Part shown: one piece after another, positions 36,001-39,000 of the stretch
Layout: each line of letters starts with the position of its first letter
Position numbering within the stretch: position 1 is the stretch's first letter
Assembly: GCA_963804085.1 (NCBI GenBank)
Contig: CAWDOQ010000017.1
Coordinates: forward strand, 96,001 to 160,000
DNA from: Chlamydiia bacterium
GTDB taxonomy: Bacteria; Chlamydiota; Chlamydiia; Chlamydiales; Rhabdochlamydiaceae
Reading direction: 5' to 3'
DNA length: 64,000 nt
Made by a program: the position numbers

Positions 36001-39000
36001 TACTACTGATTTCTGCAGCATTTTTCTCTGTGCTACGACAAAGTTTGAATGAGCTTTTATTAAACGCAAATGCAAAGCAAAAAATGGCGCCAAGAAATGG
36101 ACTAAGTGGACGCTGTGGACTTTGGTGGACGCGGTGGACAAGCGCCAATTTAATTTTGATTCTTGGGCCCTGTCCACTTCGTCCACTAAAGTCCACAACG
36201 TCCACTTAGTCCAGTGTCCACTAGGCCCTCTTCATCCTCTTTGCGTAAACTAGAGTTTGGAGAATAGTTTTTAATGGGCGCAAAAGAGCCCATTTATTAC
36301 TCTCTCTCTCATGGAAAAGGTCATTCTGGTCGATGCAGAGGATAGAGAGGTGGGGGTCGAGGAGAAGCTAGCCGCTCACCTGTCCGGCAAACTCCATCGC
36401 GCTGTCTCGGTGTTTCTCTTCAATAAGAAGGGGGAGATGCTCCTGCAGCAGAGGGCTTTTTCTAAGTACCACTCGGGCGGGCTCTGGTCCAACACTTGCT
36501 GTGGGCATCCAAGACCGGGCGAGTCTCCGCTTGCGGCAGCAGAGCGCAGGCTGTGGGAGGAGATGGGGATCCGTACTTCTCTTAACAAGCTTTTTGACTT
36601 TACCTATAGAGCAGAGCTGGACAAGGGTCTTATTGAACATGAGTTTGACCATGTCTTTCAGGGAGAGTTTGAAGGGGCATTTGAGCCTAATCCGGAAGAG
36701 GTTGCTGCCTGGAAATGGATGAGCTTGCAAGACCTGGAAAAGGCATTACACAACGAAAGCGCGCATTTCACCTACTGGTTCAGATTGATTCTCCCAAAGG
36801 TAACGGCGCATGTTTAAAAAATTGATCTTCCAAGTCAAGGGTCAGGAGTGGCGTCTCTTTGGGCTGATGTTCTTCATCGTCTGTCTTATCAACATAAACT
36901 TTAGCATTTTGAGAAGTGCGCGCAACGCGCTTGTAGTGGCAGACACGGGAGGGAGCGCCGCTTTTATCCCCTATTTCGAGCTCTTCGGCACTTTTCCTGC
37001 CTCGATTCTTTTGACATGGGGGCTGTCGCGTCTCATGCGCTTTTTCTCGGCACGCTTTATCTTTTCTATGACGATGCTCTTCTTTCTTTCGTTTTTCCTG
37101 ATCTTTGCTTTTTGGATCTATCCGGAGCGAGAGGTTATCCACACGCTACTTGAGAACAAACTGGGTCAGCTCTTTGGCCTCACCCGCTTTAAGGTGGTCT
37201 TCACACACTGGCCCGACATGATCTTTTACATCATGTCTGAGCTCTGGAAGGTGGCTCTCCTCTCTGTTCTTTTCTGGGGATTTATCAATCAAAATCTGTC
37301 GCTTGACCAAGGCAAACGCTTTTATCCGCCTCTGATGCTCGGCAGCAGTATCGGCGCGATCTTAGCAGGGCCGATCACCATCTTTTGTACGTCTCATATG
37401 AGCTGGAACTTCTTTGCACTCTCGACGCAGCGCTGGCAGCACTCTTTGTATCTGCTTACTTTTTTTCTGATCGTTTGCGGGCTTTTGACGCTGCTCTGTT
37501 TTAGTGTTCTTTTTAAGCATCTTAAGAAAAACCCTTTGACTCAACCTCAGGCTCCTCTTCCAAAAGAGGATGATAAGAGGCTTCTTCTTTCGCTCACTTC
37601 GAGTGTGCGCTATCTTTTAAAATCGCCCTATCTCAGCGCTCTTCTTCTTATCGTCGTGGCAGAGTATGTCTCTTATGCGCTTGGTGAGCTGATCTTTTTA
37701 GAGACTTTGAAACAGATGTATCCGTCACCAGCTGACTACTGTAGATATATGGGCAACTTGACGCTTTGGACGGGTATATTGACAGCCTTGAGCGCGCTTG
37801 TGTTAACCCCCTATCTTTTGCAGACCTACTCCTGGAGCCGCACTGCGTTCATCACGCCGATTCTCATGGTGCTCATGACCTTTGCCTTCTTTTTTGTGAT
37901 CTCTTGCAGCAAAGCTGGGATTTTCCCGGCAGCTGCCGCCCCTCTTCCAATGGCTGTGATCTTAGGAAGCTTGCACTTTGCAATTGGCCGTTCTGCAAAA
38001 TATACCCTCTTTGATGCGACCAAAGAGCTCGCTTTTATTCCGCTCGATAAAGAGGGGCAGACAAAAGGTAAGCTGATCATCGACGGTATTGGCTCGCGTT
38101 TGGGCAGGGGAACCTCATCGCTGCTCAGCATCATACTCTTCTTGCTTTTGGGAGGTCCCGGCGAAAGCGCGATCTTTGCAGGGATACTCGCACTCTCCTT
38201 CGCCCTAATCTCCATCCCAGCGTCCCGCTCGATCGGACGCCAATTCGAAAAGCTCACTCCTCAAGACGCCCGCGAATTAACCTGAACCAGGATAGATCCG
38301 CATCATCATCGTTGAAGTATTCATAGTTTCGAATTTCATAAACGCAGAGGAAAAGCCCGAGACACTAAGACGCAGAGAAATCCGCGAGAGTTGAACAGAA
38401 TGCGTGGGGCCCAATCGCCCCTTTTGAACGAAGTTCAAACAGTAAAAGAACGAAATCTTTTTAAGAAAGCAAGGAAGCTAATGACCTACGCAACCATTGA
38501 ACCTCCTTGCTTTCTTAAAAAGATTTCGTTCTTTTACTGTTTACTATGTAAAAGGGGCGATCTCAGCGTCTTAGTGTCTCGGGCGTTTTCTCTCGCGTTT
38601 ATGAAATTCAATTTGTTAGTTAGGCTTTGCTGCTTTGTTTGATTTGGAGGAGTTCGAGGAAGGCTAGGCATCCGAATAGGATGAAGAGGGTGTAGACATA
38701 CCAAGGAAATGTGAAGTGTAGCGTGAGGCCGATTAAGACGAAGAATTGGAGCGCGGTCGTCACCTTGCCCCAGCGAATAGCTTTGCATTTGTAAGCTTCC
38801 CACAATCCAGAAAAACTCAAGTAGAGTCCGAAGGCGCAGAGAAAGAAGTCGCGCGAGATCATCGCGCCTGCTTGCCACATGGCTAGCTTCTGCTCCATCA
38901 AGAGGACGCCCAAGGCGAAGAAGACGAAAAACTTGTCCATTGCAGGGTCTAAAATCGCCCCAAACTGTGTCGTAGAGCGGTATCTGCGCGCTAGGTATCC

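What a model noticed while it worked through the whole genome (the two positions that open the first line are those of the whole stretch)
36311..38285. A nucleotide-transporter (NTT) clade tracks loss of the MEP pathway in Chlamydiota: candidate importer of host IPP/DMAPP [...]
The genome has no route to IPP/DMAPP, but keeps idi (g01411), which overlaps a divergent NTT/TLC-family transporter gene (g01412). This transporter clade occurs almost only in chlamydiae that lack the MEP pathway and in relatives often sits in the slot of the lost dxs gene, which makes it a candidate importer of host isoprenoid diphosphates.
Evidence so far: Not found in G000: dxr, ispH, GHMP kinases (ispE), dxs, HMG-CoA reductase, ispG; xseA-xseB-nadK are contiguous at C23:59039-61385, whereas 5 of 5 MEP-positive relatives have xseA-xseB-dxs-nadK. 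Same 46 family genomes: NTT clade in 15 of 18 ispG-lacking and 0 of 28 ispG-bearing, also within genera g2 and g68. Phylum sample of 220: 29 of 43 ispG-lacking vs 6 of 177 ispG-bearing at E<=1e-85; in family f7, 8 of 8 vs 0 of 25. Two ispG-lacking f12 genomes without it have HMG-CoA reductase. Of 79 public loci of the clade, 49 lie within 2.5 kb of nadK or xseAB, 32 near both, 17 near idi, 2 beside dxs remnants. Type-1 idi: 8 of 46 genomes, 7 of them ispG-lacking. The clade groups apart from NTT1/NTT2 [...]
(Added by a program. Inside this text positions count along the whole contig: contig position 96,001 is position 1 of the stretch shown here. "Call 12" and the like, gene names such as g00115 and contig names such as C1 are that model's own, and its searches are not shown. 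The text may have been shortened before it was handed on; [...] marks where a part breaks off. The agent that wrote the report below was given it as the finding of a first reader that could run no searches.)

Follow-up and report, generated by a model that had tools for sequence, protein, structure and literature searches.

The report
Candidate isoprenoid-precursor importer in chlamydiae
Many environmental chlamydiae have lost every way to make the isoprenoid building blocks IPP and DMAPP, and most of them carry one remodelled nucleotide-transporter gene, often where the lost pathway gene stood, which makes it a testable candidate for the long-sought importer of these host molecules.

Summary
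Confirmed and strengthened, with corrections. The window holds a type-1 idi overlapping, on the same strand, an intact 491-aa NTT-family carrier (NTT-X). The genome has deleted dxs, dxr, ispE and ispH from closed syntenic slots and lacks ispG and mevalonate genes. It keeps uppS, two prenyl synthases, miaA and a lone ispF. Among 230 Chlamydiota genomes, NTT-X is in 33 of 40 with no IPP route, 0 of 6 mevalonate users and at least 6 of 184 MEP users. On a species tree, about 9 of 12 independent contrasts agree and 0.3 disagree (median p 0.004). Relatives carry it between xseB and nadK, where dxs stood, beside idi, or before menaquinone genes. Its cavity is remodelled at about 12 near-invariant positions: more basic on one side, more hydrophobic on the other. 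Best reading: importer of host IPP/DMAPP (0.65). Main challenge: three MEP-positive genomes carry same-signature copies beside thiE, so it may be a broader small-diphosphate carrier. Seven no-route genomes lack it. NAD, thiamine and B6 genes did not track it in small samples. No transport assay exists.

The parts
36311..36817 (+). idi, type-1 (Nudix) isopentenyl-diphosphate isomerase, 168 aa
   Evidence: Above the NF002995 and TIGR02150 cut-offs; motifs NTCCGHP, EHE and YRAE present; 59-66% identical to the idi genes beside NTT-X in genus g6
36810..38285 (+). NTT-X, 491-aa NTT/TLC-family carrier of a distinct clade; candidate IPP/DMAPP importer
   Evidence: Pfam TLC 335 bits, below the TIGR00769 cut-off; clade SH-aLRT 100 on a branch of 1.4; AF2 pLDDT 88 with 12 long helices; TM 0.89 to 9j3n
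36810..36817 (+). 8-nt overlap (ATGTTTAA) of the NTT-X start and the idi stop, suggesting one translationally coupled operon
   Evidence: Sequence, ORF list; co-transcription is inferred
36098..36213 (.). Palindromic dispersed repeat upstream of idi (51-nt arms, 86% complementary); context only
   Evidence: related copies on several other contigs
38331..38609 (.). Second nested palindromic dispersed repeat (about 280 nt) downstream of NTT-X; context only
   Evidence: 79-89% identical near-full copies on C19, C10, C18 and C16
39752..41323 (-). Canonical NTT (523 aa) in a convergent pgk-NTT-dedA-pgsA run; not clade X, an internal control
   Evidence: TIGR00769 552 bits, above cut-off; 0 of 12 clade-X signature residues; separate branch

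Best explanation
NTT-X is an inner-membrane MFS-fold carrier, derived from the nucleotide transporters, that imports host isoprenoid diphosphates (IPP and DMAPP, possibly FPP in some lineages). This lets the cell delete the MEP pathway while still feeding UppS, polyprenyl synthases, MiaA and CyoE; where present, the coupled Idi balances IPP and DMAPP. Shown here: the pathway loss, the retained consumers, the clade, its distribution, its gene contexts and the remodelled cavity residues. Inferred: the substrate, the direction and the driving force (exchange for Pi/PPi/ADP or H+ symport, by analogy to known NTT classes). Also inferred: the history, either reciprocal loss from ancestors that had both systems or allelic replacement of dxs using the xseB/nadK flanks, with some horizontal transfer.
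For: (1) Demand without supply: uppS in 80 of 80 and a polyprenyl synthase in 79 of 80 genomes, including 40 and 39 of the 40 no-route genomes; G000 also has miaA and cyoE. (2) Distribution 33/40 vs 0/6 vs 6/184. The six mevalonate genomes are the key control: they lost MEP but not IPP supply, and have no NTT-X. (3) 12 independent pairs on well-supported branches: mean 9.0 agree, 0.3 disagree, median p 0.004; contrasts within genera g2, g9 and g81. (4) All 20 MEP-positive dxs loci fetched read xseA-xseB-dxs-nadK with no NTT. G221 and 6 of 53 metagenome loci read xseB-NTT-X-nadK co-oriented, and 2 have NTT-X plus idi in that gap. (5) idi lies within 3 kb in 7 genomes, in two arrangements; type-1 idi is in 10 of 33 no-route carriers vs 4 of 184 MEP-positive genomes. 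(6) Menaquinone genes (menG, mostly with menF-menD) lie just downstream in G066, G181, G220 and within 4 kb in 5 of 53 metagenome loci. (7) Cavity-helix changes nearly invariant across members about 40% identical to each other: K>R38, D>N39, K>E57, G/S>K147, N>S180, I>Y289, N>A290, W>F296, K>L297, K>R433, while R35, E144, E293, K397, D402 and R430 are kept.
Against: No assay. At least 6 MEP-positive genomes carry the clade; in G160, G101 and G064 a copy lies beside thiE genes and has 11-12 of 12 signature residues. Seven no-route genomes (G223, G224, G038, G085, G097, G141, G146) have no NTT with the signature, so another route exists or the assemblies are incomplete. 23 of 33 no-route carriers have no idi of either type. 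13 of 33 have none of the isoprenoid-related neighbours in the stretches examined. nadK is the commonest neighbour (26 of 53). In G000 itself the gene is not in the dxs slot. The sign-test range reaches p 0.07, and the median is 0.02 without the mevalonate genomes. Divergent members such as G177 fall below the profile gap, so MEP-positive carriers may be undercounted.
Confidence: 0.65

Rival explanations
1. The clade mainly carries thiamine-pathway diphosphates (TPP or HMP-PP), and the link to MEP loss is indirect.
For: thiE-NTT-thiE in G160 and G101 and thiE-NTT in G064, with one ThiE of each pair above the TIGR00693 cut-off; 1 of 53 metagenome loci; same cavity signature. Dxs and MenD are TPP enzymes, and G065 has a thiamine pyrophosphokinase one gene away.
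Against: thiE is in only 5 of 33 no-route carriers and not in G000. Pyrophosphokinase is in 2 of 7 MEP-positive non-carriers and 2 of 9 carriers. 5 of the 7 non-carriers have neither enzyme, yet must obtain TPP for Dxs without NTT-X. Losing dxs lowers TPP demand. A carrier with mixed specificity is compatible with the best explanation.
Confidence: 0.13
2. NTT-X carries an ordinary nucleotide or another host metabolite, and both it and MEP loss mark a lifestyle with better access to host cytosol.
For: Family membership. Most conserved charged residues are kept. Seven no-route genomes manage without it.
Against: Does not explain the position in the dxs gap, the pairing with idi or the absence from all 6 mevalonate genomes. 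Carriers keep their canonical NTTs (G000 has two more). The Asn at CpNTT1 position 193, recalled as the adenine contact, is Ser throughout the clade.
Confidence: 0.12
3. NTT-X imports NAD for the neighbouring NAD kinase.
For: nadK is the commonest neighbour (26 of 53). NTTs that carry NAD are known (PMC5381601, passages). G000 has no nadE hit.
Against: nadK follows dxs in 20 of 20 MEP-positive loci, so the adjacency comes with the slot. nadE is present in both members of two within-genus pairs (G031/G099, G221/G178). Orientation to nadK varies. NAD import would not track IPP supply. G000 has a separate remote NTT-like 426-aa protein that might be the NAD carrier (not tested).
Confidence: 0.06

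Closest known systems
ATP/ADP translocases CpNTT1 and AtNTT1 (PDB 9j3n, 9j3o, 9j3j, 9j3l, 9j3m)
   Same: Same family and fold: E 2e-63 by sequence, TM-score 0.89 at 28% identity; conserved R35, E144, E293, K397, D402.
   Different: Separate long-branch clade; about 12 cavity positions changed, including Ser for CpNTT1 Asn193; below the TIGR00769 cut-off; distribution tied to loss of IPP synthesis rather than universal.
Chlamydial NTT2/3/5-type carriers, PamNTT4 (NAD) and the orphan SnNTT4
   Same: Paralogues of one family with shifted substrates; SnNTT4 has no known substrate (PMC11317633, passage).
   Different: Described substrates are nucleotides or NAD. PamNTT4 lies outside the canonical group (PMC5381601), whereas NTT-X branches among canonical NTTs. 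No f9, f6 or f12 genome reached the clade-X score range.
Host-isoprenoid scavenging by Rickettsia and Orientia (PMC5615194, PMC6854040)
   Same: No MEP or mevalonate pathway, UppS and a long-chain prenyl synthase kept, idi gained in some; a transporter for IPP, DMAPP or FPP is predicted.
   Different: Those papers name no transporter. G000 keeps an IspA-like enzyme. Whether rickettsial Tlc2/Tlc3 resemble NTT-X was not tested.
Reclusachlamydia socialis (bioRxiv 10.1101/2024.11.28.625222)
   Same: [quoted passage not shown]
   Different: One species; the passages read mention only NTT1 and NTT2 and no importer. Whether it has NTT-X was not established; its supplements were closed.

Membership tests
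NTT/TLC (AAA) family | Pfam PF03219 over the full length | tested here: met
   335 bits, residues 2-479
NTT/TLC (AAA) family | 12-helix MFS fold like the solved NTT1 structures | tested here: met
   12 long helices, pLDDT 88; TM 0.89 to 9j3n
NTT/TLC (AAA) family | TIGR00769 NTP/NDP exchange transporter cut-off | tested here: not met
   288.9 vs 387.2 bits
NTT/TLC (AAA) family | Transport of nucleotides | not testable with these tools
   Needs an uptake assay
ATP/ADP translocase (NTT1 class) | Groups with NTT1 and keeps its cavity residues (K48, D49, K67, N193, W307, K308, K447 in the numbering of the G000 NTT1-type protein) | tested here: not met
   Separate clade; all seven positions changed; their functional roles are recalled, the structure paper was not held
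PamNTT4-like NAD carriers | Lies outside the canonical NTT group | tested here: inconclusive
   NTT-X branches among canonical NTTs, but no PamNTT4 sequence was available for direct comparison
Type-1 IDI | Curated IDI models and the Cys/His/Glu motifs | tested here: met
Rickettsia-type isoprenoid scavenging | No MEP and no mevalonate route | tested here: met
   only ispF is left
Rickettsia-type isoprenoid scavenging | UppS and polyprenyl synthase retained | tested here: met
Rickettsia-type isoprenoid scavenging | No IspA, so FPP must also be imported | tested here: not met
   G000 has an IspA-like gene (E 6e-50); 8 of 8 no-route f7 genomes have at most one prenyl synthase vs two in 12 of 13 MEP-positive f7 genomes
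Rickettsia-type isoprenoid scavenging | Growth depends on the host mevalonate pathway | not testable with these tools
   Needs a culture

The most novel reading that the evidence does not exclude
NTT-X is the first molecularly identified bacterial importer of IPP/DMAPP: a nucleotide carrier rebuilt into a carrier of small organic diphosphates that has repeatedly let chlamydiae drop the MEP pathway, at times by replacing dxs in place, with a side branch recruited to thiamine salvage.
Probability: 0.55. Interest if true: 0.9.

Novelty: new variant of a known kind. Interest (0 to 1): 0.76.

Why it matters
Transporters for isoprenoid diphosphates are inferred in Rickettsia, plants and protozoan parasites, but their identity was called uncertain (PMC6854040) and none was found in Rickettsia (PMC5615194). 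This gives a concrete gene and a one-step assay. It would widen the NTT family beyond nucleotides and NAD. It shows that host-isoprenoid parasitism is common in chlamydiae (40 of 230 genomes in a sample, many independent events) rather than a single case. An IPP importer would also be a useful tool for feeding prenyl diphosphates to engineered bacteria.

Tried and rejected
Incomplete assembly as the cause of MEP absence: rejected for G000 by four closed slots; accepted for G079 and G219, which have ispH, a GHMP kinase and dxs and were recoded MEP-positive. Import of a MEP intermediate (DXP, MEcPP, HMBPP): rejected because ispG and ispH are gone too. Vitamin B6 import after loss of DXP: pdxJ found in 0 of 5 MEP-positive relatives. 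G160 as a decaying pseudogene: the search flagged a stop, but the locus holds an open 412-aa frame between thiE genes, so it is counted as a carrier. G067 (borderline by E-value) is not in the clade. The Nudix gene upstream of the G167 copy is not an IDI. An E-value or profile threshold as the clade definition: it missed G177, so tree and signature were used. dxs remnants beside NTT-X: none in 53 loci. Named cultured carriers: none among the listed hits. Promoter and terminator scan: at chance level. Earlier scan findings: none. Literature searches for a described IPP transporter or for this clade found nothing relevant; subscription journals are not covered.

Full report
THE LOCUS. The window is G000:C17:96001-160000. 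A 168-aa ORF at 36311-36817 passes both curated type-1 IDI cut-offs. It overlaps by 8 nt, on the same strand, a 491-aa ORF at 36810-38285 that matches Pfam TLC over its length (335 bits) but stays under the TIGR00769 cut-off. I call it NTT-X. It is 31.6% identical to the two other full NTTs of the genome, one of which lies 1.5 kb away on the other strand. The AF2 model has 12 long helices and pLDDT 88, and matches Chlamydia pneumoniae NTT1 at TM 0.89.

THE PATHWAY IS REALLY GONE. ispG, ispH, GHMP kinases, dxs, HMG-CoA reductase and dxr were not found in G000. The neighbours that flank these genes in relatives are adjacent in G000, inside contigs: xseB abuts nadK; the dxr flanks are about 20 bp apart, the ispE flanks about 200 bp apart, and the ispH flanks abut. 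The ispG slot is less conserved and less clear. An intact ispF remains, and an IspD-like/SDR fusion scores below the ispD cut-off; neither can make IPP alone. The consumers are kept: uppS, two polyprenyl synthases, miaA and cyoE.

DISTRIBUTION. I used one sample of 231 genomes, of which G005 was not scored in most searches. ispG was found in 183 of 230. The 47 negatives plus 33 positives that I chose (80 genomes) were then searched for ispH, GHMP kinases, dxs, HMG-CoA reductase, uppS and polyprenyl synthases. G079 and G219 were recoded MEP-positive; G108 (partial ispG, no ispH, GHMP kinase or dxs) was recoded MEP-negative. This gives 46 MEP-negative genomes, of which 6 have HMG-CoA reductase with tandem GHMP kinases and 40 have no route. 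For 150 of the 184 MEP-positive genomes the status rests on ispG alone.

NTT-X and its relatives form one clade with SH-aLRT 100 on a long branch (97 rows, quick tree). A profile of 27 members separated 38 matches at 497 bits or more from a background at 403 or less, with two matches between. The training members match by construction, but 13 of the carriers were not in the training set. Tree and signature added G160 and G177. Result: 33 of 40 no-route genomes, 0 of 6 mevalonate genomes, and at least 6 of 184 MEP-positive genomes (G064, G101, G167, G144, G160, G177). All full-length NTTs recovered from the seven no-route genomes without a hit were aligned, and none has the signature. uppS is in 80 of 80 genomes, so the need for IPP is universal.

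INDEPENDENCE. A species tree of the 80 genomes from four adjacent genes (quick, LG+G4) needs 17 changes for each trait. Twelve independent pairs on starred branches differ in IPP route; NTT-X goes the same way in 9.0 on average, the other way in 0.3, with median sign-test p 0.004 (range 0.002-0.07). Without the mevalonate genomes the median is 0.02. Contrasts occur within genera g2, g9 and g81. The tree is rough, and I chose the MEP-positive subset.

GENE CONTEXT. All 20 MEP-positive dxs loci fetched read xseA-xseB-dxs-nadK with no NTT beside them. Of the 33 no-route carriers, 16 have NTT-X within about 3 kb of nadK or xseAB. G221 reads xseB-NTT-X-nadK exactly; G135, G155 and G213 have it in the same gap with extra DNA or inverted; others have it next to nadK. 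Seven have idi within 3 kb, head to head in g6 and in tandem in G000. Three lie just upstream of menaquinone genes. Thirteen showed none of these neighbours. In metagenomes, 53 of 78 loci were clade X by signature: 31 have nadK or xseAB within 4 kb, 6 fill the dxs gap exactly, 2 have NTT-X plus idi in the gap, 6 have idi, 5 menG, 1 thiE, and none has dxs or another MEP gene. Many of these contigs are short, and some overlap the genome sample.

Type-1 idi (E <= 1e-20) is in 10 of 33 carriers, 3 of 6 mevalonate genomes, 1 of 7 other no-route genomes and 4 of 184 MEP-positive genomes; type-2 idi is only in three mevalonate genomes. So 23 carriers need both IPP and an allylic primer from the host, as described for Orientia (PMC5615194).

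ANATOMY. Against 43 other NTTs, 39 clade members share changes in the helices that line MFS cavities (general knowledge): R38, N39, E57, K147, S180, D/E285, Y286, Y289, A290, F296, L297, L422 and R433. R35, E144, E293, K397, D402, K421, D425 and R430 are kept. A 12-position signature scores 11-12 in all 37 genome-derived members tested and 0-2 in 11 other NTTs. S180 aligns with Asn193 of CpNTT1, which I recall as the adenine contact; that paper was not held. An added lysine and lost polar contacts fit a diphosphate with a small apolar tail. This is inference; no docking was run.

THE MAIN CHALLENGE. In three MEP-positive genomes a clade member lies beside thiE genes and has the same signature. 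The ThiE substrate HMP-PP is also a small organic diphosphate (established knowledge), so the clade may have mixed specificity. Thiamine as the main role fits poorly: thiE is in 5 of 33 carriers and not in G000, and thiamine pyrophosphokinase is in 2 of 9 carriers and 2 of 7 non-carriers. nadE is in both members of two within-genus pairs but was not found in G000. pdxJ is in 0 of 5 MEP-positive relatives. These three controls are small samples.

MECHANISM. Most likely (0.65): host IPP and DMAPP cross the inner membrane through NTT-X, by exchange or proton symport; Idi adjusts the ratio; UppS, the prenyl synthases, MiaA and CyoE consume them. With import in place the MEP genes are deleted. The recurring position at dxs can come from an ancestral neighbourhood with reciprocal loss, or from recombination between relatives at the shared flanks; my data do not separate the two.

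WHAT IS KNOWN. I read passages only (find calls), no whole texts and no supplements. PMC6854040 shows Rickettsia parkeri depends on host isoprenoids and says the transporter identities remain uncertain. PMC5615194 found no isoprene transporter and lists substrates for Tlc1, Tlc4 and Tlc5 only. bioRxiv 10.1101/2024.11.28.625222 reports a chlamydia lacking both pathways and names no importer; its closed supplements may list its NTTs. PMC2878342 describes the Waddlia mevalonate operon. PMC11317633, PMC6171736 and PMC5381601 cover NTT substrates and diversity. Nine searches found no paper linking an NTT to isoprenoid import; subscription journals are not covered.

VERDICT. A real feature: a member of the NTT family, not of the ATP/ADP class, with a strongly supported but unassayed new substrate class. 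New variant of a known kind; interest 0.76.

Noticed in passing
G000 C17:162416-162916 (L294:1917-2417), 2.4 kb beyond the window end: Intact ispF above its cut-off, directly after a ddl-like gene, although the rest of MEP is gone. Also kept in G186, but not in G031, G221, G126 or G077. Relic or second role; unexplained.
   Followed up: partly
L127:7345-9865 (G160), L135:5588-8188 (G101), L137:6296-8291 (G064), L468: A thiE-like / clade-X NTT / thiE module in MEP-positive genomes and one metagenome locus; possibly a thiamine-salvage importer in its own right.
   Followed up: partly
Family f7 and genus g4: No-route genomes often have only one polyprenyl synthase (8 of 8 in f7 have at most one; 6 of 7 in g4 have one). 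By score pattern the IspA-like copy is the one lost, as in Rickettsia, so FPP may also be imported.
   Followed up: partly
G186 (L019) and G182 (L129): The NTT-X of G186 (f7) nests among f1-g4 copies and that of G182 groups with f10 copies, suggesting transfer between families; no AU test was run.
   Followed up: partly
G221 C2:121447-121620; G108: A weak ispH remnant with two stops (E 2.8e-4) and a partial ispG match (E 1.3e-22) hint at recent pathway decay in two carriers.
   Followed up: no
window 32213-35936 (+): Tandem array of four paralogous 284-344 aa proteins with weak ankyrin hits, with further paralogues on other contigs.
   Followed up: no
window 36098-36213 and 38331-38609: Two different multi-copy palindromic elements (MITE- or REP-like) flank the idi-NTT-X pair.
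   Followed up: partly
G000 C10:112541-113923 (L295:1542-2927): 461-aa fusion of an IspD/TarI-like cytidylyltransferase and a short-chain reductase; it looks like a CDP-ribitol-type enzyme rather than MEP IspD.
   Followed up: partly
G000 C15:11283-12560: Remote 426-aa NTT-like protein in a genome with no nadE hit; possibly a PamNTT4-like NAD carrier.
   Followed up: no
G223, G224, G038, G085, G097, G141, G146: Seven genomes with uppS but no ispG, ispH, dxs, HMG-CoA reductase or NTT-X: an unknown second route to IPP, or incomplete assemblies.
   Followed up: partly
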